A stretch of 64,000 nt of DNA, from assembly GCF_000027125.1 (NCBI RefSeq), contig NC_017626.1. The stretch is one strand, 5' to 3'. Source of the DNA: Escherichia coli 042. GTDB lineage: Bacteria; Pseudomonadota; Gammaproteobacteria; Enterobacterales; Enterobacteriaceae. The notes below the pieces were generated by a model. It was not told where the DNA came from. It made no database searches and worked only from the letters and a program-made list of their open reading frames with translations. This document shows positions 5,680 through 64,000 of the stretch, in pieces; the stretch's first letter is position 1, and every line of letters begins with the position of its first letter. Both the position numbers and the translations under genes were made by a program.

Positions 5680-7506
5680 TCAGGCTCCTCGTGAAACAAT
5701 AATCACCACCAGTACCGCCAGTTCAACCAGCGCCATCCGGCGGAACAGCAACGCACTCCCCTCGCACTGCCAGCCCGGCACCAGCGACACCGGATTCAGC
5801 CATTTGCGCAGTTTCAGCACTGGCGCAAACGCCTGTTTCACCGGCATGGCAAAACCGTGAGCAGTAATCACCATTGATTTTTCATGGTCGTAGCCGCACA
5901 CCCAGGCCGCGCCGCGGGAACGCGACGGCAAACGATCGCCTTTGCAAATCGCCATAATGATGAATGGCAGCAGCGGGCAGGCAATCAGCAGCAACGTGAT
6001 CATGGGTTGAGAAACGGTGGTGTTAGCAGGCTCCAGCGGCAGAGGTACAGCAGCAGAGAGCATCGGCAGCAGCCACGGCGCAGCAACACCGCCAATGACG
6101 CAGCAAATCGCCAGTGCCACCACGCTTACGCTCATCAGGAGCGGCGCACAGGTGGCGTTTTCGGCTTCTTTGGTACGCGGCGCGCCGAGGAACGTGACGC
6201 CATAGACTTTCGCCATACACATCACCGCCAGCGCACCGGTAATTGCCAGACCCACAGCGAGCAGCGGCCCCAGCAGACGGGCAACAAACGCGCCACTATT
6301 GCTCAGCTTGAAGAAGGATTGATAGATAACCCATTCCCCGGCAAACCCGTTCAGCGGCGGCAGCGCAGCCATTGCCATCAGCCCGACTAACATGGCGATG
6401 GAGATAACCGGCATTTTCTTGCCAATACCACCGAGTTTTTCGATATCGCGATGACCGGTACGGAACCAGACGCTCCCCGCCCCGAGGAACAGTACGCTTT
6501 TGAACAGGCTATGGTTAAGCAGATGGTACAGACCACCGACCAGGCCAAGAGCAATCAGCGCCGGTTGTTCGAGCGCGATACCCGTTACGCCAGCGCCCAG
6601 CCCCAGCAGGATAATGCCGATATTCTCCAGGGTGTGGTAAGCCAGCAGGCGCTGGATGTTGTGTTCCATCAACGCATACAGACCACCGACGAACGCGGTG
6701 ATCATGCCGAGCACCAGCAGCGCGATCCCCCACCACAGCGGTGCATTACCGCCCAGCAGCGACAGGGTTAAAATGCCCAGCAGGCCAATTTTCATGACTA
6801 CCGTAGAAAACAACGCGGCAGCTGGCGCAGAGGCGTTAGCATGTGCCTGCGGCACCCAGCCGTGCAGCGGAATAATCCCGGCCAGCAGGCCAAAGCCAAT
6901 CACACCGAGCAGCCAGATATCGGAACCGAGCGGCAGCTGTTGCATACGCATATCCAGCAGGCGCAGATCCAGCGTGCCGTAACGCTGCCACAGCAGCCAG
7001 CAGGCAATCGCCAGCAGCAGAGTGCCAAGACGCCCCAGCGCAAACCACAGTTTGCCCTCTTTGCTGTTGCTGGTGAGGAACACCGCACACAGGGCCATGA
7101 TTTCGGCCATTACCACGAACATGCCGAGGTTGCTGGCGATGACGGCACAGACGGCGGCAGCCATCAACATATTGATCTGCAAGCCGTTGCATTTCACCTG
7201 CGCGTGGCGATGCCAGTCAATGTTGTAGAGGCTGACAAACAGACCGCACAGGCCGAGCGTAATCAGCCAAATCGCGTTAAGCGGAGAGATTTGCACATCG
7301 TAGCTTACCAGCGACAGCGCACCGCTCACGCCAACCGCACCAGTCAGCACAGTGAAGCCCGCGGCTGCCGTATACAGGCTACCCACCGCGCCGCCAATTC
7401 CGGCTATCCAGCCACTCAGCGCCTTTTGAAAAGAAAAGAGAAATGCCAGAACAGCGGCGGCGGCAAACCACGCCACGCCACTATTGATCAGGGAAATTGC
7501 GCTCAT
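5680..7506 (-). CDS. hycC: formate hydrogenlyase membrane subunit (NuoL/antiporter-like)
   Basis: 608 aa polytopic membrane protein; operon position. Confidence 0.93.
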   Translation of the reverse strand: MSAISLINSGVAWFAAAAVLAFLFSFQKALSGWIAGIGGAVGSLYTAAAGFTVLTGAVGVSGALSLVSYDVQISPLNAIWLITLGLCGLFVSLYNIDWHRHAQVKCNGLQINMLMAAAVCAVIASNLGMFVVMAEIMALCAVFLTSNSKEGKLWFALGRLGTLLLAIACWLLWQRYGTLDLRLLDMRMQQLPLGSDIWLLGVIGFGLLAGIIPLHGWVPQAHANASAPAAALFSTVVMKIGLLGILTLSLLGGNAPLWWGIALLVLGMITAFVGGLYALMEHNIQRLLAYHTLENIGIILLGLGAGVTGIALEQPALIALGLVGGLYHLLNHSLFKSVLFLGAGSVWFRTGHRDIEKLGGIGKKMPVISIAMLVGLMAMAALPPLNGFAGEWVIYQSFFKLSNSGAFVARLLGPLLAVGLAITGALAVMCMAKVYGVTFLGAPRTKEAENATCAPLLMSVSVVALAICCVIGGVAAPWLLPMLSAAVPLPLEPANTTVSQPMITLLLIACPLLPFIIMAICKGDRLPSRSRGAAWVCGYDHEKSMVITAHGFAMPVKQAFAPVLKLRKWLNPVSLVPGWQCEGSALLFRRMALVELAVLVVIIVSRGA

Positions 7507-8114
7507 TTAGCCTCTCCACTTTGAGCCTGCTGAAACAAGGTGAGATCGCCAAAGTCCGTGTTAAAAGTCAGCTCACGCTTACGTTTGCTGACGCGGGCGA
7601 TATCGGTGTTATCCACCAGATGCAGGGCTTTAGTCGGGCACATCCGCACGCAGGCCGGACCTTGTTCATCAAAACTACAAAGGTCACATTTGACGGCGAT
7701 CGCGCGAATACCTGGCACCCAGTCAAGCAATGTGCTGACACGCGCCGGAGCAGGCGGTGCCGGTGGCGCTTTCGGGGTATTGGCATTTGCCGGAATATCC
7801 AGCGGACGGCTGCCGGAAAATTCAATTGCGCCAAACGGGCAGGCGATGCCGCACAGTTTGCAGCTTACGCACAGACTTTCATTCAACTGCACGGCCCCAT
7901 CAACGCGGGTGATGGCGTTAACCGGGCAGACCACCGCACAGGGCGCATCTTCACAGTGGTGACAGAGCTGCGGCGCAGATTCTTTTTCATTCAGCATCAC
8001 TCTCAGGCGCGGCATTGATTGCAGGCCGTGCTGGCGATGCGTCTCTGAACAGGCGGCCTCACAAGTGTGGCAGCCGATACAGAGCGTGGAGTCAGCAATT
8101 ACAAAACGATTCAC
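7503..8114 (-). CDS. hycB: formate hydrogenlyase Fe-S subunit
   Basis: 203 aa with four Cys-cluster motifs (CxxCxxCxxxC). Confidence 0.93.
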   Translation of the reverse strand: MNRFVIADSTLCIGCHTCEAACSETHRQHGLQSMPRLRVMLNEKESAPQLCHHCEDAPCAVVCPVNAITRVDGAVQLNESLCVSCKLCGIACPFGAIEFSGSRPLDIPANANTPKAPPAPPAPARVSTLLDWVPGIRAIAVKCDLCSFDEQGPACVRMCPTKALHLVDNTDIARVSKRKRELTFNTDFGDLTLFQQAQSGEAK

Positions 8115-8164
8115 CAGGCATTCCTCAGGTGATTGTCATTTTTGACGAAAACATGCCGATGAAA

Positions 8165-8190
8165 TGTCATTTTCGACACTCATCGACACG
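8165..8190. promoter_or_regulatory. candidate FhlA-type upstream activator motif, copy 1 (hycA-hycB intergenic)
   Basis: tgtcattttcgacactcatcgacacg; near-duplicate of the motif at 8818..8840. Confidence 0.45.
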
Positions 8191-8238
8191 CCCATCCCCA
8201 AACAGGCGTAACGCCTGCAAAACGGGCAAAGCCTCAGC

Positions 8239-8700
8239 TCATGCTGCCGGGCTTTGTCCCTTTACCAGTTGGCTTAAATTCACCGGCACATTGTTTTCAA
8301 TGGCGGTATATAAGCTGTCGTAAACGCCAGCGATTTTTTCGAGATAGTGTTCCAGAACCTGTTCGCGATCGCGGATGTTGACCTTGCCATCAATCATGCC
8401 GTCAATGCTCAGTTGCGCCTGCGCAATCCGCTGTTTGTCTTCACCATCTTTTGTTTCGACGTAATACTCGATGGTGTGGCTGTTAAAGCCATCCGCCAGG
8501 GTGACGTAAATACGAAAATGTTCAAAAAGGACGAAACAGAGTTCTTTGTCCGGCGCGCAGCTCATGGCGTGATGCAGGCGCGCTTTCGATAACGTGATCC
8601 CCTGAACCAGCGAATTGCAGTAGATGTGCCACTGGTCCTGTAGGCGACGATGCCGCTGTGCGATGTAATCGGCTTTCTCGCTTATTTCCCAAATAGTCAT
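8239..8700 (-). CDS. hycA: formate hydrogenlyase regulatory protein
   Basis: 153 aa ORF, first gene of the hyc operon, divergent from hypA. Confidence 0.9.
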   Translation of the reverse strand: MTIWEISEKADYIAQRHRRLQDQWHIYCNSLVQGITLSKARLHHAMSCAPDKELCFVLFEHFRIYVTLADGFNSHTIEYYVETKDGEDKQRIAQAQLSIDGMIDGKVNIRDREQVLEHYLEKIAGVYDSLYTAIENNVPVNLSQLVKGQSPAA

Positions 8701-8736
8701 TGTCAGGTTACCCGTTTAACAGAGATGTCAGCTTTA

Positions 8737-8754
8737 AGCATTTTCTGTGCCAAC
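8737..8754 (-). promoter_or_regulatory. sigma-54 promoter (-24/-12) for the hyc operon
   Basis: Minus-strand read TGGCAC-agaaa-ATGC (plus strand gcattttctgtgcca) about 40 bp upstream of hycA start. Confidence 0.6.
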
Positions 8755-8817
8755 TTTTAATTTATTGTTATTAAAGCGATTTTTAAGCTAAAGATGAATT
8801 TCGTCGCCGTGTCGACG

Positions 8818-8840
8818 TGTCATTTCGACATCATCGACAT
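8818..8840. promoter_or_regulatory. candidate FhlA-type upstream activator motif, copy 2 (hycA-hypA intergenic)
   Basis: tgtcatttcgacatcatcgacat, flanked by further tcgac/tttcg repeats (8796..8842). Confidence 0.5.
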
Positions 8841-8865
8841 TATTCACTGCAGGGATAATCAACAC

Positions 8866-8881
8866 TGGCACAATTATTGCT
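8866..8881 (+). promoter_or_regulatory. sigma-54 promoter (-24/-12) for the hyp operon
   Basis: TGGCAC-aatta-TTGCT about 30 bp upstream of hypA start. Confidence 0.65.
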
Positions 8882-8911
8882 TGTAGCTGGCAATAGTTAA
8901 TGGGAGGCGAT

Positions 8912-9262
8912 ATGCACGAAATAACCCTCTGCCAACGGGCACTGGAATTGATCGAACAGCAGGCCGCAAAACACGGCGCAAAACGCGTAACTGGGGTCTG
9001 GCTCAAAATTGGCGCATTTTCTTGTGTCGAAACCAGCTCTCTTGCCTTTTGTTTTGATCTGGTTTGCCGCGGCAGCGTGGCGGAAGGTTGTAAACTGCAC
9101 CTCGAAGAACAAGAGGCCGAATGCTGGTGTGAAACATGCCAACAGTATGTGACGCTACTGACCCAACGCGTCCGCCGCTGTCCACAGTGTCATGGTGACA
9201 TGCTACAGATTGTGGCAGACGACGGTTTACAGATTCGGCGGATAGAAATAGACCAGGAGTGA
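8912..9262 (+). CDS. hypA: hydrogenase nickel incorporation protein
   Basis: Starts MHEITLCQRALELIEQQ; C-terminal CxxC...CPxC zinc site; 116 aa. Confidence 0.95.
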   Translation: MHEITLCQRALELIEQQAAKHGAKRVTGVWLKIGAFSCVETSSLAFCFDLVCRGSVAEGCKLHLEEQEAECWCETCQQYVTLLTQRVRRCPQCHGDMLQIVADDGLQIRRIEIDQE

Positions 9263-9265
9263 GCG

Positions 9266-10138
9266 ATGTGTACAACATGCGGTTGCGGTGAAGGCAACCT
9301 GTATATCGAGGGTGATGAACATAACCCTCATTCCGCGTTTCGTAGCGCGCCATTTGCCCCGGCGGCACGCCCGAAGATGAAAATCACCGGCATTAAAGCG
9401 CCTGAATTTACCCCCAGCCAGACTGAAGAAGGCGACCTGCATTACGGTCATGGCGAAGCGGGTACTCACGCGCCGGGCATGAGCCAGCGTCGGATGCTGG
9501 AAGTCGAAATTGACGTGCTGGACAAAAATAACCGTCTGGCTGAACGCAACCGCGCGCGCTTTGCTGCCCGCAAGCAACTGGTGCTCAACCTGGTTTCCAG
9601 CCCTGGTTCAGGTAAAACCACCCTGCTGACGGAAACTTTAATGCGCCTGAAAGACAGCGTTCCGTGCGCGGTTATTGAAGGCGATCAGCAAACCGTGAAC
9701 GATGCCGCACGCATTCGCGCTACCGGCACACCAGCGATTCAGGTGAATACCGGTAAAGGCTGCCATCTTGACGCACAGATGATTGCCGACGCCGCACCGC
9801 GCCTGCCACTGGACGATAACGGTATTCTGTTTATCGAAAACGTCGGCAACCTCGTGTGCCCGGCCAGCTTCGATCTCGGTGAAAAACACAAAGTGGCGGT
9901 GCTTTCCGTTACCGAAGGTGAAGACAAACCGCTGAAATATCCGCATATGTTTGCCGCAGCTTCGCTGATGCTGCTCAACAAAGTTGACTTGCTGCCGTAT
10001 CTCAACTTTGACGTTGAGAAGTGCATCGCCTGCGCCCGCGAAGTCAATCCAGAAATTGAAATCATCCTTATTTCCGCCACCAGCGGCGAAGGGATGGACC
10101 AGTGGCTGAACTGGCTGGAGACACAGCGATGTGCATAG
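9266..10138 (+). CDS. hypB: hydrogenase nickel incorporation GTPase
   Basis: 290 aa; N-terminal [10 protein letters not shown] metal-binding motif, His-rich stretch, P-loop GSPGSGKTT. Confidence 0.95.
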
Positions 10139-12602: not shown

Positions 12603-14681
12603 ATGTCATATACACCGATGAGTGATCTCGGACAACAAGGGTTGTTCGACATCACTCGGACACTATTGCAGCAGCCCGATCTGGCCTCGCTGTGTGAGGC
12701 TCTTTCGCAACTGGTAAAGCGTTCTGCGCTCGCCGACAACGCGGCTATTGTGTTGTGGCAAGCGCAGACTCAACGTGCGTCTTATTACGCATCGCGTGAA
12801 AAAGACACCCCCATTAAATATGAAGACGAAACTGTTCTGGCACACGGTCCGGTACGCAGCATTTTGTCGCGCCCTGATACGCTGCATTGCAGTTACGAAG
12901 AATTTTGTGAAACCTGGCCGCAGCTGGCCGCAGGTGGGCTATACCCCAAATTTGGTCACTATTGCCTGATGCCACTGGCGGCGGAAGGGCATATTTTTGG
13001 TGGCTGTGAATTTATTCGTTATGACGATCGCCCCTGGAGCGAAAAAGAGTTCAATCGTCTGCAAACATTTACGCAGATCGTTTCTGTCGTCACCGAACAA
13101 ATCCAGAGCCGCGTCGTCAATAATGTCGACTATGAGTTGTTATGCCGGGAGCGCGATAACTTCCGCATCCTGGTTGCCATTACCAACGCGGTGCTTTCCC
13201 GCCTGGATATGGACGAACTGGTCAGCGAAGTCGCCAAAGAAATCCATTACTACTTCGACATTGACGATATCAGCATCGTCTTACGCAGCCACCGTAAAAA
13301 CAAACTCAACATCTACTCCACTCACTATCTTGATAAACAACATCCCGCCCACGAACAGAGCGAAGTCGATGAAGCCGGAACCCTCACCGAACGCGTGTTC
13401 AAAAGTAAAGAGATGCTGCTGATTAATCTCCACGAGCGGGATGATTTAGCCCCCTACGAACGCATGTTGTTCGACACCTGGGGCAACCAGATTCAAACCT
13501 TGTGCCTGTTACCGCTGATGTCTGGCGACACCATGCTGGGCGTGCTGAAACTGGCGCAATGCGAAGAGAAAGTGTTTACCACTACTAATCTGAATTTACT
13601 GCGCCAGATTGCCGAACGTGTGGCAATCGCTGTCGATAACGCCCTCGCCTATCAGGAAATCCATCGTCTGAAAGAACGGCTGGTTGATGAAAACCTCGCC
13701 CTGACCGAGCAGCTCAACAATGTTGATAGTGAATTTGGCGAGATTATTGGCCGCAGCGAAGCCATGTACAGCGTGCTTAAACAAGTTGAAATGGTGGCGC
13801 AAAGTGACAGTACCGTGCTGATCCTCGGTGAAACTGGCACGGGTAAAGAGCTGATTGCCCGCGCGATCCATAATCTCAGTGGGCGTAATAATCGCCGCAT
13901 GGTCAAAATGAACTGCGCGGCGATGCCTGCCGGATTGCTGGAAAGCGATCTGTTTGGTCATGAGCGTGGGGCTTTTACCGGTGCCAGCGCCCAGCGCATT
14001 GGTCGTTTTGAACTGGCGGATAAAAGCTCTCTGTTCCTCGACGAAGTGGGCGATATGCCACTGGAGTTACAGCCGAAGTTGCTGCGTGTATTGCAGGAAC
14101 AGGAGTTTGAACGCCTCGGCAGCAACAAAATCATTCAGACGGACGTGCGTCTAATCGCCGCGACTAACCGCGATCTGAAAAAAATGGTCGCCGACCGAGA
14201 GTTCCGTAGCGATCTCTATTACCGCCTGAACGTATTCCCGATCCACCTGCCGCCACTACGCGAGCGTCCGGAAGATATTCCGCTGCTGGCGAAAGCCTTT
14301 ACCTTCAAAATTGCCCGTCGTCTGGGGCGCAATATCGACAGCATTCCTGCCGAGACGCTGCGCACCTTGAGCAACATGGAGTGGCCGGGTAACGTACGCG
14401 AACTGGAAAACGTCATTGAGCGCGCGGTATTGCTAACACGCGGCAACGTGCTGCAGCTGTCATTGCCAGATATTGCTTTACCGGAGCCTGAAACGCCGCC
14501 TGCCGCAACGGTTGTCGCTCAGGAGGGCGAAGATGAATATCAGTTGATTGTTCGCGTGCTGAAAGAAACTAACGGCGTGGTTGCCGGGCCTAAAGGCGCT
14601 GCGCAACGTCTGGGGCTGAAACGCACGACCCTGCTGTCACGGATGAAGCGACTGGGAATTGATAAATCGGCATTGATTTAA
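12603..14681 (+). CDS. fhlA: formate hydrogenlyase transcriptional activator (sigma-54 enhancer-binding protein)
   Basis: Starts MSYTPMSDLGQQ; GAF domains, AAA+ sigma-54 interaction motifs (GETGTGKE, GAFTGA), C-terminal HTH; 692 aa. Confidence 0.95.
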   Translation: MSYTPMSDLGQQGLFDITRTLLQQPDLASLCEALSQLVKRSALADNAAIVLWQAQTQRASYYASREKDTPIKYEDETVLAHGPVRSILSRPDTLHCSYEEFCETWPQLAAGGLYPKFGHYCLMPLAAEGHIFGGCEFIRYDDRPWSEKEFNRLQTFTQIVSVVTEQIQSRVVNNVDYELLCRERDNFRILVAITNAVLSRLDMDELVSEVAKEIHYYFDIDDISIVLRSHRKNKLNIYSTHYLDKQHPAHEQSEVDEAGTLTERVFKSKEMLLINLHERDDLAPYERMLFDTWGNQIQTLCLLPLMSGDTMLGVLKLAQCEEKVFTTTNLNLLRQIAERVAIAVDNALAYQEIHRLKERLVDENLALTEQLNNVDSEFGEIIGRSEAMYSVLKQVEMVAQSDSTVLILGETGTGKELIARAIHNLSGRNNRRMVKMNCAAMPAGLLESDLFGHERGAFTGASAQRIGRFELADKSSLFLDEVGDMPLELQPKLLRVLQEQEFERLGSNKIIQTDVRLIAATNRDLKKMVADREFRSDLYYRLNVFPIHLPPLRERPEDIPLLAKAFTFKIARRLGRNIDSIPAETLRTLSNMEWPGNVRELENVIERAVLLTRGNVLQLSLPDIALPEPETPPAATVVAQEGEDEYQLIVRVLKETNGVVAGPKGAAQRLGLKRTTLLSRMKRLGIDKSALI

Positions 14682-62206: not shown

Positions 62207-63100
62207 ATGCGAAATTTTATCTTCCTTATGGCTTTCTTCTGTTCATCTGTGTTTGCCACACAAATTCCAGTACCTGAATCACCCAGGTATGTGAATGACT
62301 TAACCGGCACATTGACAAACAGTGAAGTAAACACCCTGACCAACCAGATTAAAGCCCTGACGCAAAAAAACAACGCACAGTTGGTCGTGTTAGTGGTTGA
62401 AACAACAGGCGATGAAACCATCGAGCAGTACGCAACGCGGGTATTCGATAGCTGGAAACCGGGTGATAAAGACCGCGATGATGGCGTTCTACTGTTAGTC
62501 GCCTGGCAGGATAATACCGTGCGTATTGAAATTGGTTACGGACTGGAAGGTATTATTACGGATGCGCAGTCCGGGAAAATTATTCGCAACAGTATTATTC
62601 CGGCATTTAAAAAAGGCGACCTGGCTGGCGGTTTACAAAAGGGGATCAGCGATATTGAAAGTCGTCTGACGGGGAATAATTTAGCAACGATAACACCGAC
62701 CGATTACCCTTTGCCCTTTAGTGGTTGGTGGGCTTTGTTAGTCTGGGCGATAGTACTGACGTTTATTTCTGCCAGAGGATATGTCAAAACACTGGGACTA
62801 ATTTGCTTCGCAGCTATTGTACTGGCCTTTGTTTTACCTATAGCAGGTTTCAGCGGAAGCTGGGGAGTGCTCGCAACATTACTCTGCTTCGCCACACCGT
62901 TCCTGGCTGTCGCCATCGCTTTTACTCCCTTCGGCAAAAAGGTTCGGGATTCGATGCGTAATACCAACCAGCCATCACGCCATACAAGAAACAATTCTTC
63001 CTCCCACTATTCGTCATCGTCATCCTCTTCATTCGACAATGACAATTTCCGCGGTGGTGGCGGTTCATCTGGTGGCGGTGGCGCTTCCGGGCGCTGGTAA
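62207..63100 (+). CDS. ygcG: TPM-domain membrane protein with Gly/Ser-rich C-terminal tail
   Basis: About 297 aa from MRNFIF; signal peptide, TPM domain, TM segments, tail SSSHYSSSSSSSFDNDNFRGGGGSSGGGGASGRW. Confidence 0.8.
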   Translation: MRNFIFLMAFFCSSVFATQIPVPESPRYVNDLTGTLTNSEVNTLTNQIKALTQKNNAQLVVLVVETTGDETIEQYATRVFDSWKPGDKDRDDGVLLLVAWQDNTVRIEIGYGLEGIITDAQSGKIIRNSIIPAFKKGDLAGGLQKGISDIESRLTGNNLATITPTDYPLPFSGWWALLVWAIVLTFISARGYVKTLGLICFAAIVLAFVLPIAGFSGSWGVLATLLCFATPFLAVAIAFTPFGKKVRDSMRNTNQPSRHTRNNSSSHYSSSSSSSFDNDNFRGGGGSSGGGGASGRW

Positions 63101-63114
63101 CAAAAGGAATTGAT

Positions 63115-64000
63115 ATGCGTATTTTTCTCTTACTTCTGATGCTATGCGGTTTTCAGGTATTCGCTGAACGATTGCCTTCAGTGACTGACTTAACCGGGAC
63201 ATTAACGACAGAAGAACAAAGTGCTTTAAATCAACAATTACAGACTCTCGAGCAGCAAAACCACTTCCAGGTGGCCGTGTTGGTTACGCCGACCACAGGG
63301 GGCAAAAATATTAAACTTGCAGCCTCGCAGAGCTACGGGTTATATCACTGGAAACCCGTTGGAGAGAAGCGATATGGCGAAGGAATCTTAATTCTCGTCC
63401 TCTGGCCGGAAGGGCTGGCGTCAATGAAGATTGGACATGGACTGGAACAGATGTTGCCGCCGGAACAAGCTGCACAAATTGTTCGTTACCATATGCAGCC
63501 AGAATTCGAAAAAAACAATCTCTTTGCTGGATTAACGGGCGGAATTGAAAGCATCGCACAGTTTACCCATATCAAAGCGAACCTTAGCCCTTTGGATGCT
63601 TTAGCCAATCATCTGTTTGCTAATCCGCAACGTTCGCTGCCATGTCTTGCCTGGACACTGCTGATGATCGTTGCCATCGTTGTCCTCTGGCGATTTGCCA
63701 GCCGCCCAGGGCGTGGCATATGGATGATATCGATGATTACCCCTATGGTCTGGTTTTTCTTCTTTCAGGACGATGTCATCATTCGGCGGGTGTCGATCGT
63801 TTGTTTTAGTTTATTGTTCGCAACAACCTGCTGGCAGCGTCTCGCGGTAGTTTTTAATATGTGCCGCGCATTTCCTATGATGCTGGCCCCCAAAAATAAA
63901 AACACTAAAGTGAAAAAACAAAAGAAGACTCCGCAGGTTCGTGAATCAGGACGAAATTCATTGTTTGTCGTGATGCTGATAATTATTGTGGGATGGTGCC
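63115..64000 (+). CDS. second TPM-domain membrane protein (3' end beyond window)
   Basis: ATG at 63115; signal peptide MRIFLLLLMLCGFQVFA; TPM-like domain; not in ORF track, so presumably open to the window edge. Confidence 0.65.
   Translation, partial: MRIFLLLLMLCGFQVFAERLPSVTDLTGTLTTEEQSALNQQLQTLEQQNHFQVAVLVTPTTGGKNIKLAASQSYGLYHWKPVGEKRYGEGILILVLWPEGLASMKIGHGLEQMLPPEQAAQIVRYHMQPEFEKNNLFAGLTGGIESIAQFTHIKANLSPLDALANHLFANPQRSLPCLAWTLLMIVAIVVLWRFASRPGRGIWMISMITPMVWFFFFQDDVIIRRVSIVCFSLLFATTCWQRLAVVFNMCRAFPMMLAPKNKNTKVKKQKKTPQVRESGRNSLFVVMLIIIVGWC

What the first reader, a model, noticed from the sequence alone, without database searches (positions are those of the whole stretch)
8115..8911. Paired sigma-54 promoters and a duplicated 23-26 nt motif in the hyc/hyp control regions
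TGGCAC-N5-TTGC-type -24/-12 elements are present on both strands (8737..8754 minus, 8866..8881 plus). The motif tgtcattt(t)cgaca(y)(y)atcgaca occurs twice in the same orientation, at 8165..8190 between hycA and hycB and at 8818..8840 between hycA and hypA. These are probably the FhlA upstream activator sites. The second copy within the hyc operon suggests an internal FhlA-dependent control point bypassing hycA.
Basis: partly seen in the sequence, partly recalled or inferred. Interest (0 to 1): 0.3.

Follow-up and report, generated by a model that had tools for sequence, protein, structure and literature searches.

The report
Known FhlA enhancers, hyc/hyp promoters
The repeated motif and the two promoter-like elements are real. 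They are the already characterised control sites of the E. coli formate hydrogenlyase genes: FhlA activator-binding enhancers plus two divergent sigma-54 promoters. I found no sign of a new promoter inside the operon.

Summary
The window is E. coli chromosome: hycI–hycA on the minus strand, hypABCDE-fhlA on the plus strand.

**Observation: confirmed.**
- The gapped motif TGTCATTT(T)CGACA(C)TCATCGACA occurs exactly twice, at 8165-8188 and 8818-8839. It occurred in 0 of 100 shuffles.
- The -24/-12 elements lie at 8866-8880 (+) and 8738-8752 (-). They are the ChIP-seq-confirmed sigma-54 sites of hypA and hycA.

**The motif copies are FhlA sites.**
- They are the two best matches in 64 kb to a published FhlA matrix built from footprinted sites.
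- They contain the published half-site CATTTCG.
- They are conserved in 80 hycA loci across Enterobacteriaceae.
- Their spacings change in steps of about 10 bp.

**A third site was missed.** TTTCGTCAAAAATGAC (8135-8150) is exact in 77 of 81 loci.

- No sigma-54 element lies between the distal site and hycB.
- The only hyc-sense candidate sits inside hycA (8616-8631). It reflects the W-H-I-Y-C codons, is not conserved as a promoter, and has no reported ChIP-seq peak.
- From my memory of Schlensog et al. 1994, which I could not retrieve, the hycA–hycB site is the remote enhancer of the hyp promoter, about 0.7 kb away.

**Verdict:** already known, low interest.

The parts
7503..8114 (-). hycB, second gene of the hyc operon (context)
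   Evidence: RefSeq annotation of a 100%-identical genome; ORF
8134..8150 (.). Distal enhancer, sub-site ii: TGTCATTTTTGACGAAA (hyc sense TTTCGTCAAAAATGACA). A palindromic GTCA-N4-TGAC core.
   Evidence: FhlA matrix score 12.1 bits, 4th best in the window. The 16-mer TTTCGTCAAAAATGAC is invariant in the 26-taxon alignment and exact in 77 of 81 loci. It resembles the fdhF upstream CGTCAAAACTGACG.
8165..8189 (.).
   Evidence: Exact motif match. Best FhlA matrix hit in 64 kb, 16.6 of a possible 16.7 bits. TGWCGA-N3-4-TGTCG is present in 80 of 81 loci. Identical in K-12 at NC_000913.3 2849900-2849924. The 71-nt stretch 8125-8195 is >=99% identical in 5360 of 5426 E. coli records.
8239..8700 (-). 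hycA, anti-activator of FhlA and first gene of the hyc operon. It separates the distal enhancer from the promoters.
   Evidence: Annotation; translation
8737..8752 (-). Sigma-54 promoter of hycABCDEFGHI (TGGCACAGAAAATGCT). Inferred transcription start near 8726.
   Evidence: RpoN matrix 15.39 bits. K-12 ChIP-seq site OS27, TTGGCACAAAAAATGCT, 26 nt from hycA. Salmonella ChIP-chip. Conserved in all aligned genera.
8753..8792 (.). A/T-rich spacer with an IHF-like sequence (TAACAATAAATTA, 8758-8770 minus strand) between the central enhancer and the hyc promoter
   Evidence: Conserved A/T-rich block AAATCAATnnnTTAAAAA in the alignment. The exact WATCAANNNNTTR occurs in 23 of 76 loci. That IHF binds here is from my memory of Hopper et al. 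1994.
8793..8840 (.). Central enhancer.
   Evidence: Second-best FhlA matrix hit, 8826-8839, 15.55 bits. Conserved TGACGATGTCGAnnnTGwCGAAATGACAyGTCG. Identical in K-12. Distances to both promoters are quantised in ~10-bp steps.
8866..8881 (+). Sigma-54 promoter of hypABCDE-fhlA (TGGCACAATTATTGCT). Inferred transcription start near 8892.
   Evidence: RpoN matrix 18.75 bits, best in the window. K-12 ChIP-seq site OS28 has the identical sequence, 20 nt from hypA. Also found by gSELEX.
8912..9262 (+). hypA, first gene of the hyp operon
   Evidence: Annotation
12603..14681 (+). fhlA, the activator that binds these sites. It is the last gene of the hyp-fhlA transcription unit. RefSeq labels it 'flhA'.
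   Evidence: Annotation: 'formate hydrogenlyase transcriptional activator'

Best explanation
The two motif copies are the cores of two FhlA enhancers (upstream activating sequences) that serve the two known divergent sigma-54 promoters of the formate regulon.

**Proposed mechanism**
1. Sigma-54 RNA polymerase sits in closed complexes at PhycA (8738-8752, -) and PhypA (8866-8880, +).
2. Formate-activated FhlA is encoded in the same window at the end of the hyp operon. It binds clusters of TGTCG/GACA-type half-sites on one face of the DNA, at the central enhancer (8793-8840) and at the distal enhancer in the hycA-hycB spacer (8134-8189).
3. The DNA loops, and FhlA's ATPase opens the promoters.
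4. The central enhancer lies about -67 to -114 from the hyc start. With an IHF-bent A/T-rich spacer, it drives hycABCDEFGHI.
5. The distal enhancer lies about -700 to -760 from the hyp start. It is the remote enhancer for hypABCDE-fhlA.
6. No separate promoter exists for hycB. hycB-I are read from PhycA through hycA.

**Shown here**
- The elements exist.
- Both promoters are occupied by sigma-54.
- The sites match FhlA matrices.
- The sites are deeply conserved, with helical spacing.
- No conserved internal promoter is present.

**Inferred or from memory**
- Which enhancer serves which promoter.
- The IHF role.
For: **Sigma-54 at both promoters**
- ChIP-seq in K-12, ChIP-chip and FhlA-regulon expression in Salmonella, gSELEX.

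**FhlA identity of the motif**
- The FhlA matrix was built from the footprinted sites of Schlensog 1994 and Leonhartsberger 2000. It ranks 8165-8178 and 8826-8839 first and second of about 128,000 positions, and 8134-8147 fourth.
- The published FhlA consensus is CATTTCGTACGAAATG. Its half-site occurs in copy 2 (CATTTCG). Copy 1 has CATTTTCG.

**Conservation**
- All 80 retrieved hycA loci keep the hypA<->hycA-hycB synteny and both enhancers, although HycA identity falls to 63%.

**DNA-face constraint**
- The distance from distal sub-site i to sub-site ii is 18-22 or 28-31 bp, with nothing in between.
- The distance from the central enhancer to PhycA is 58-61 or 69-70 bp.
- The distance from the central enhancer to PhypA is 42-44 or 53-55 bp.
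- All four combinations of the two central-enhancer distance classes occur.

**Against an internal promoter**
- The only hyc-sense RpoN matrix hits of 6 bits or more between 7900 and 8760 are PhycA and an intragenic site at 8616-8631. That site is not conserved and has no ChIP-seq peak.

**Experimental strain**
- The sites are identical in K-12.
Against: - I could not retrieve the primary footprint and deletion papers (ten literature searches used). The assignment 'distal enhancer to hyp promoter' therefore rests on my memory of Schlensog et al. 1994, Hopper et al. 1994 and Lutz et al. 1990.
- The FhlA matrix test is partly circular. The matrix was probably built from these very sites.
- The matrix scores the fdhF and hydN upstream regions only weakly (8.5 and 7.4 bits).
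- The central enhancer is helically phase-locked to PhypA as well as to PhycA. A strict one-enhancer-one-promoter scheme does not predict this.
- In the Enterobacter clade the distal sub-site spacing drifts over 18-22 bp, so the helical-turn argument is loose there.
Confidence: 0.8

Rival explanations
1. The hycA-hycB copy is an internal FhlA-dependent control point that yields hycB-I transcripts lacking hycA. The most concrete version uses the sigma-54-like sequence inside hycA (8616-8631, -), with the enhancer acting from about 430-480 bp downstream of it.
For: TGGCACATCTACTGCA at 8616-8631 (-) is the third-best RpoN matrix hit in 64 kb, at 14.85 bits, close to PhycA's 15.39. It is the best internal hyc-sense hit at the same codon position in 74 of 81 loci. 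From general knowledge, sigma-54 enhancers can act from either side of a promoter. Intragenic sigma-54 sites are common in E. coli (PMC4591121).
Against: - The sequence is dictated by codons W-H/R/Q-x-Y-C.
- Its median score across loci is 12.3, and only 15 of 81 reach the weakest real PhycA score (13.7).
- In 19 of 81 loci the codon is TGT, which destroys the -12 GC.
- PMC4591121 lists no ChIP-seq peak there, although it does list one in hycC.
- No -24/-12 element lies between the enhancer and hycB.
- The enhancer is conserved in all genera, while this candidate promoter is not.
Confidence: 0.04
2. The two enhancers are not dedicated one-to-one. FhlA bound at the central and distal sites cooperates in a higher-order oligomer that loops out hycA, and the assembly feeds both PhycA and PhypA. 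Alternatively, the central enhancer alone serves both promoters and the distal one only boosts them.
For: - The central enhancer keeps a fixed helical phase to both promoters independently. All four combinations of the two distance classes occur.
- The left part of the central enhancer (8793-8817) lies 49-73 bp from the PhypA -24 element. This is similar to the roughly 60-80 bp spacing I counted by eye in the upstream sequences of fdhF and hydN.
- Both enhancers share the same composite core.
Against: As I recall it, the literature reports separate functional assignments for the two sites. The phase-locking to PhypA could instead reflect steric compatibility of neighbouring complexes. No direct data were available here.
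Confidence: 0.13
3. The conserved blocks in the hycA-hycB spacer act at the RNA level in the hyc mRNA, for example in hycB translation or mRNA processing, rather than as protein-binding DNA.
For: - Sub-site ii sits exactly 20 nt before the hycB start in 67 of 81 loci.
- It is more invariant than typical transcription-factor sites.
- The spacer is transcribed.
- A clade-specific hairpin lies just upstream of it.
Against: - The same composite motif occurs in the central region, which lies upstream of both inferred transcription starts.
- The blocks are DNA palindromes (GTCA-N4-TGAC, TGTC-N6-GACA) that would form only 4-bp RNA stems.
- Kosakonia has a 15-17 nt insertion between sub-site ii and hycB without losing the block.
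- The blocks match the FhlA matrix.
Confidence: 0.02
4. The repeat and the promoter-like elements are chance matches.
For: A degenerate YGWC-N6-GWCR pattern is common: 30 matches in the window against about 13 expected. One-mismatch TGGCAC-N5-TTGC matches are at chance level overall: 10 found against 7.2 expected.
Against: The 22-nt gapped repeat had 0 matches in 100 shuffles. The elements are deeply conserved. Sigma-54 occupancy is shown by ChIP.
Confidence: 0.01

Closest known systems
FhlA upstream activating sequences of the E. coli formate regulon (hyc, hyp, fdhF, hydN-hypF; Schlensog et al. 1994; Leonhartsberger et al. 2000)
   Same: Same organism, same locus, and sequence identical to K-12. 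The sites match the matrix derived from those papers. They contain the CATTTCG half-site of the published consensus. They lie next to the FhlA-dependent sigma-54 promoters.
   Different: Nothing substantive; this is the same object.
Divergent sigma-54 promoters PhycA / PhypA (Lutz et al. 1990; ChIP-seq sites OS27 and OS28 in PMC4591121)
   Same: The PhypA sequence is identical. PhycA is identical except for one spacer base (window AGAAA, K-12 AAAAA).
   Different: Only that spacer SNP.
Remote sigma-54 enhancers such as the NtrC sites at glnAp2 or the NifA upstream activating sequences
   Same: An AAA+ activator bound at a distance contacts a closed sigma-54 complex by DNA looping, sometimes with IHF-assisted bending.
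   Different: The distal FhlA enhancer lies about 0.7 kb from PhypA, inside the oppositely oriented operon, in a transcribed intercistronic spacer. That is unusually far for a natural site.

Membership tests
Sigma-54 (-24/-12) promoter | GG and GC dinucleotides 10 bp apart within TGGCAC-N5-TTGCW | tested here: met
   8866-8880 is an exact match. 8738-8752 has one mismatch (ATGC). RpoN matrix scores are 18.75 and 15.39, the two best in 64 kb.
Sigma-54 (-24/-12) promoter | Occupied by sigma-54 holoenzyme in vivo or in vitro | tested here: met
   From the literature, for the orthologous K-12 and Salmonella sequences: ChIP-seq OS27/OS28, ChIP-chip, gSELEX.
Sigma-54 (-24/-12) promoter | Correct position and orientation upstream of a gene, conserved in relatives | tested here: met
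   The TGG lies 50-53 nt before the hycA ATG and 44-50 nt before the hypA ATG in nearly all 81 loci.
FhlA enhancer (upstream activating sequence) | Sequence matches the FhlA binding consensus | tested here: met
   Matrix scores are 16.6, 15.55 and 12.1 bits, ranking 1st, 2nd and 4th in the window. The CATTTCG half-site of the published consensus is present. Caveat: the matrix was probably trained on these sites.
FhlA enhancer (upstream activating sequence) | Physically bound by FhlA (footprint, gel shift or ChIP) | not testable with these tools
   The primary papers are not held. From memory, Schlensog et al. 1994 footprinted both the hyc-hyp intergenic site and a site between hycA and hycB.
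FhlA enhancer (upstream activating sequence) | Linked to an FhlA- and formate-dependent sigma-54 promoter | tested here: met
   hyc and hyp are listed as FhlA-dependent sigma-54 operons. The central site lies 27-87 bp from the two -24 elements.
FhlA enhancer (upstream activating sequence) | Conserved as non-coding DNA across species that have FhlA/hyc, with face-of-helix spacing | tested here: met
   There is no element between the enhancer and hycB. The hycA-internal candidate at 8616-8631 is not conserved and has no ChIP-seq peak.

The most novel reading that the evidence does not exclude
The hyc-hyp control region may be a single three-part enhancer machine rather than two independent enhancer-promoter pairs. 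The central FhlA site is helically phase-locked to both divergent sigma-54 promoters in all Enterobacteriaceae examined. It may cooperate with the near-invariant distal site, looping out hycA, to fire both promoters. A fringe version adds an Escherichia-specific sigma-54 site inside hycA (8616-8631), which would give hycA-less hycB-I transcripts.
Probability: 0.13. Interest if true: 0.3.

Novelty: already known. Interest (0 to 1): 0.1.

Why it matters
This locus is the textbook regulatory core of fermentative hydrogen production in E. coli: FhlA, formate, sigma-54, and HycA feedback. The finding mainly shows that a tool-free reader can recover known enhancers and promoters from raw sequence.

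Its only forward-looking claim, an internal promoter bypassing the anti-activator gene hycA, would have mattered for engineering hydrogen yield. It is not supported.

The cross-genus analysis done here may help anyone redesigning this region. Hydrogen-production strains often delete or replace hycA, and sometimes the hycA-hycB spacer with it, which removes the distal enhancer. The analysis adds three points:
- a third, near-invariant site;
- ~10-bp quantised spacings on both sides of the central enhancer;
- the absence of any conserved internal promoter.

Tried and rejected
**Literature retrieval**
- All ten full-text searches failed to find an accessible statement on the role of the hycA-hycB site.
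- Direct look-ups also failed: Leonhartsberger 2000, Skibinski 2002 (PMC135417), Hopper & Böck 1995 (PMC176951) and Pinske & Sawers 2016 (PMC11575713).
- K-12 RefSeq carries no regulatory-site features for this locus.

**Pattern searches**
- The ungapped pattern TGTCATTTNCGACA with two mismatches is not above chance: 4 found against 1.8 expected. The gapped full motif is decisive.
- The degenerate YGWC-N6-GWCR pattern is too unspecific.
- The FhlA matrix recognises the fdhF and hydN enhancers only weakly, and hyfA ambiguously. It therefore cannot serve as a genome-wide predictor.
- Two further high FhlA-matrix hits at 63018-63210 lie inside a TPM-domain gene. I regard them as chance.

**Other tests**
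- The generic scan found no terminator on the hyc strand between hycA and hycB.
- RNAalifold on the clade-specific post-hycA hairpin gave no consensus structure, because the sequences do not align. Single folds give modest z-scores of -0.1 to -2.2.
- The exact IHF consensus is present in only 23 of 76 loci, so the IHF role rests on the literature rather than on sequence.

Full report
**1. What the window is.**
- Region 7400-9400 is 100% identical to several complete E. coli chromosomes. It is present in 5425 of 5426 complete E. coli genomes.
- RefSeq annotation of an identical genome places hycI through hycA on the minus strand: hycB at 7503-8114 and hycA at 8239-8700. hypA (8912-9262), hypB-E and fhlA (12603-14681) are on the plus strand.
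- The finding therefore covers the hycB-hycA spacer, hycA itself, and the hycA/hypA divergent control region.

**2.
- By direct reading, copy 1 is TGTCATTTTCGACACTCATCGACA (8165-8188). Copy 2 is TGTCATTTCGACATCATCGACA (8818-8839).
- The gapped pattern matches exactly twice, and never in 100 dinucleotide-preserving shuffles.
- TGGCACAATTATTGC (8866-8880, +) is an exact -24/-12 consensus. TGGCACAGAAAATGC (8738-8752, -) has ATGC at -12.
- With a matrix from 186 sigma-54 promoters (taken from PMC7658346), these two are the two best hits in 64 kb.

**3. The promoters are the known ones.**
- PMC4591121 lists ChIP-seq sigma-54 sites for hycA (TTGGCACAAAAAATGCT, 26 nt from the gene) and hypA (CTGGCACAATTATTGCT, 20 nt). 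Both are marked as confirmed promoters.
- The window differs only by one spacer base in PhycA.
- Salmonella ChIP-chip and expression data list hycA, hypA, hydN and fdhF as FhlA-dependent sigma-54 units.
- gSELEX also finds the hycA/hypA spacer.

**4. The motif copies are FhlA sites.**
- PMC7658346 gives a 14-position FhlA matrix built from 13 sites of Schlensog et al. 1994 and Leonhartsberger et al. 2000.
- Scanning both strands of the window puts 8165-8178 first (TGTCGAAAATGACA, 16.6 of a possible 16.7 bits). 8826-8839 is second (15.55), and 8134-8147 is fourth (12.1).
- This test is partly circular, because the matrix very likely includes these sites.
- PMC4987338 quotes the Leonhartsberger consensus CATTTCGTACGAAATG. 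Copy 2 contains CATTTCG and copy 1 contains CATTTTCG.
- The fdhF and hydN upstream regions of K-12 contain related palindromes (CGTCAAAACTGACG; CGTCACTAGTGTCG) but no full copy of the 22-nt motif.

**5. Phylogenetic footprint.**
- A scan of one genome per species with HycA returned 80 loci. They come from Escherichia, Salmonella, Citrobacter, Enterobacter, Klebsiella, Raoultella, Kluyvera, Kosakonia, Lelliottia, Pseudocitrobacter and others.
- All keep the hypA<->hycA-hycB arrangement.
- I aligned both spacers from 26 taxa. Five features are conserved:
  - both sigma-54 promoters;
  - an A/T-rich IHF-like stretch next to PhycA;
  - a central block, TGACGATGTCGAnnnTGwCGAAATGACAyGTCG, which is copy 2 plus its flanks;
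  - in the hycA-hycB spacer, GTGTCGAnnnGTGTCGAAAATGACA, which is copy 1;
  - a further block, TTTCGTCAAAAATGAC (window 8135-8150).
- The last block is invariant in all 26 aligned taxa and exact in 77 of 81 loci.
- These blocks persist although HycA identity falls to 63% and the rest of the spacers is unalignable.
- Within E. coli, the 71-nt distal stretch is >=99% identical in 5360 of 5426 records.

**6. Spacing argues for protein bound on one DNA face.**
- The two distal sub-sites are 18-22 bp apart (19 loci) or 28-31 bp apart (59 loci). None lies between these ranges.
- The central anchor lies 58-61 or 69-70 bp from the PhycA TGG. It lies 42-44 or 53-55 bp from the PhypA TGG.
- All four combinations of those two distance classes occur in different genera. 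Each side therefore changes independently by about one helical turn.
- This fits the statement, relayed in PMC11291172 from Leonhartsberger 2000, that FhlA binds one side of the DNA.
- It also shows that PhypA is phase-locked to the central site. A strict 'central site serves hyc only' scheme does not explain this. I record it as an open point.

**7. The 'internal control point' inference.**
- An enhancer needs a sigma-54 promoter. Between the distal enhancer and the hycB start there are about 20 nt and no GG-N10-GC.
- In hyc sense between 7900 and 8760, the only RpoN-matrix hits of 6 bits or more are PhycA and TGGCACATCTACTGCA at 8616-8631, inside hycA (14.85 bits, third best in the window).
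- That sequence is codons 24-28 of hycA (W-H-I-Y-C).
- Across 81 loci its median score is 12.3, and only 15 reach the weakest true PhycA score. The second codon varies among H, R and Q. In 19 loci the codon is TGT, which removes the -12 GC.
- PMC4591121 reports no peak there, although it reports an intragenic one in hycC.
- The conserved enhancer therefore has no conserved partner promoter inside the operon.
- From memory of Schlensog et al. 1994, Lutz et al. 1990 and reviews by Sawers and Böck, the hycA-hycB site is the enhancer of the hyp promoter, roughly 0.7 kb away. Here it lies at -703 to -758 from the inferred start at 8892.
- I could not retrieve those papers, so this step is marked as recalled, not verified.

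**8. Mechanism.** FhlA is encoded at the end of hypABCDE-fhlA, which gives positive feedback. Its antagonist HycA is the first hyc gene, which gives negative feedback.
1. Formate activates FhlA.
2. FhlA oligomerises on the half-site clusters.
3. The DNA loops, with IHF assisting at hyc.
4. FhlA's ATPase opens the two closed sigma-54 complexes.

*Shown:* the elements, sigma-54 occupancy, the FhlA-type sequence, conservation, and spacing. *Inferred or recalled:* which enhancer serves which promoter, and IHF binding.

**9. Rivals.**
- A shared or cooperative three-site enhancer (0.13; it is compatible with most of the best explanation).
- An RNA-level role for the distal blocks (0.02).
  - The same motif lies in untranscribed DNA.
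  - The blocks are DNA palindromes.
  - Kosakonia has an insertion between sub-site ii and hycB yet keeps the block.
- Chance (0.01).

**10. Verdict.** The elements are textbook and already known. The one new inference is not supported. Interest is low.

Noticed in passing
window 8134-8150: A third FhlA-type site, TGTCATTTTTGACGAAA (hyc sense TTTCGTCAAAAATGAC), lies about 20 nt upstream of the hycB start. It is invariant in 26 aligned taxa and exact in 77 of 81 loci. In the 26-taxon alignment only this block is invariant in every column; neither sigma-54 promoter is.
   Followed up: yes
window 8616-8631 (-): A sigma-54-like TGGCACATCTACTGCA lies inside hycA (codons W-H-I-Y-C). It is the third-best RpoN matrix hit in 64 kb. 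It is not conserved as a promoter and is absent from the published ChIP-seq list.
   Followed up: yes
window 6280-6295 (-): TGGCGCGTTTGTTGCC inside hycC corresponds to the published intragenic sigma-54 ChIP-seq site IS31 (GTGGCGCGTTTGTTGCC) of PMC4591121. Its function is unknown.
   Followed up: partly
window 8742-8880 and loci L005-L084: Distances between the central FhlA site and each of the two divergent sigma-54 promoters take only two values each, about 10-11 bp apart, in all four combinations across genera. The inter-promoter distance is 91, 101-102 or 111-115 bp. This points to helical phase constraints on both sides.
   Followed up: yes
window 8195-8238 (hyc strand): Only Escherichia, Salmonella, Citrobacter and Intestinirhabdus carry an extra 50-70 nt just after the hycA stop. 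It folds into a hairpin whose inner stem sequence differs between genera. The hairpin is flanked by conserved GCCCGTTTTG and TTTGGGGATGGGC. The E. coli fold is -21.6 kcal/mol with z = -2.0, and no proper U-tract follows. In Citrobacter the stems contain CGTCACGAC/GTCGTGACG, which resemble FhlA half-sites.
   Followed up: partly
window 12603-14681 (+): RefSeq/PGAP labels the formate hydrogenlyase activator gene with the symbol 'flhA' and the product 'FlhA'. This invites confusion with the flagellar export gene flhA. The gene is fhlA.
   Followed up: no
window 63018-63031 and 63197-63210 (-): Two of the five best FhlA-matrix hits in the window lie 180 bp apart inside a TPM-domain protein gene. 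No sigma-54 promoter is nearby, so they are probably chance.
   Followed up: partly
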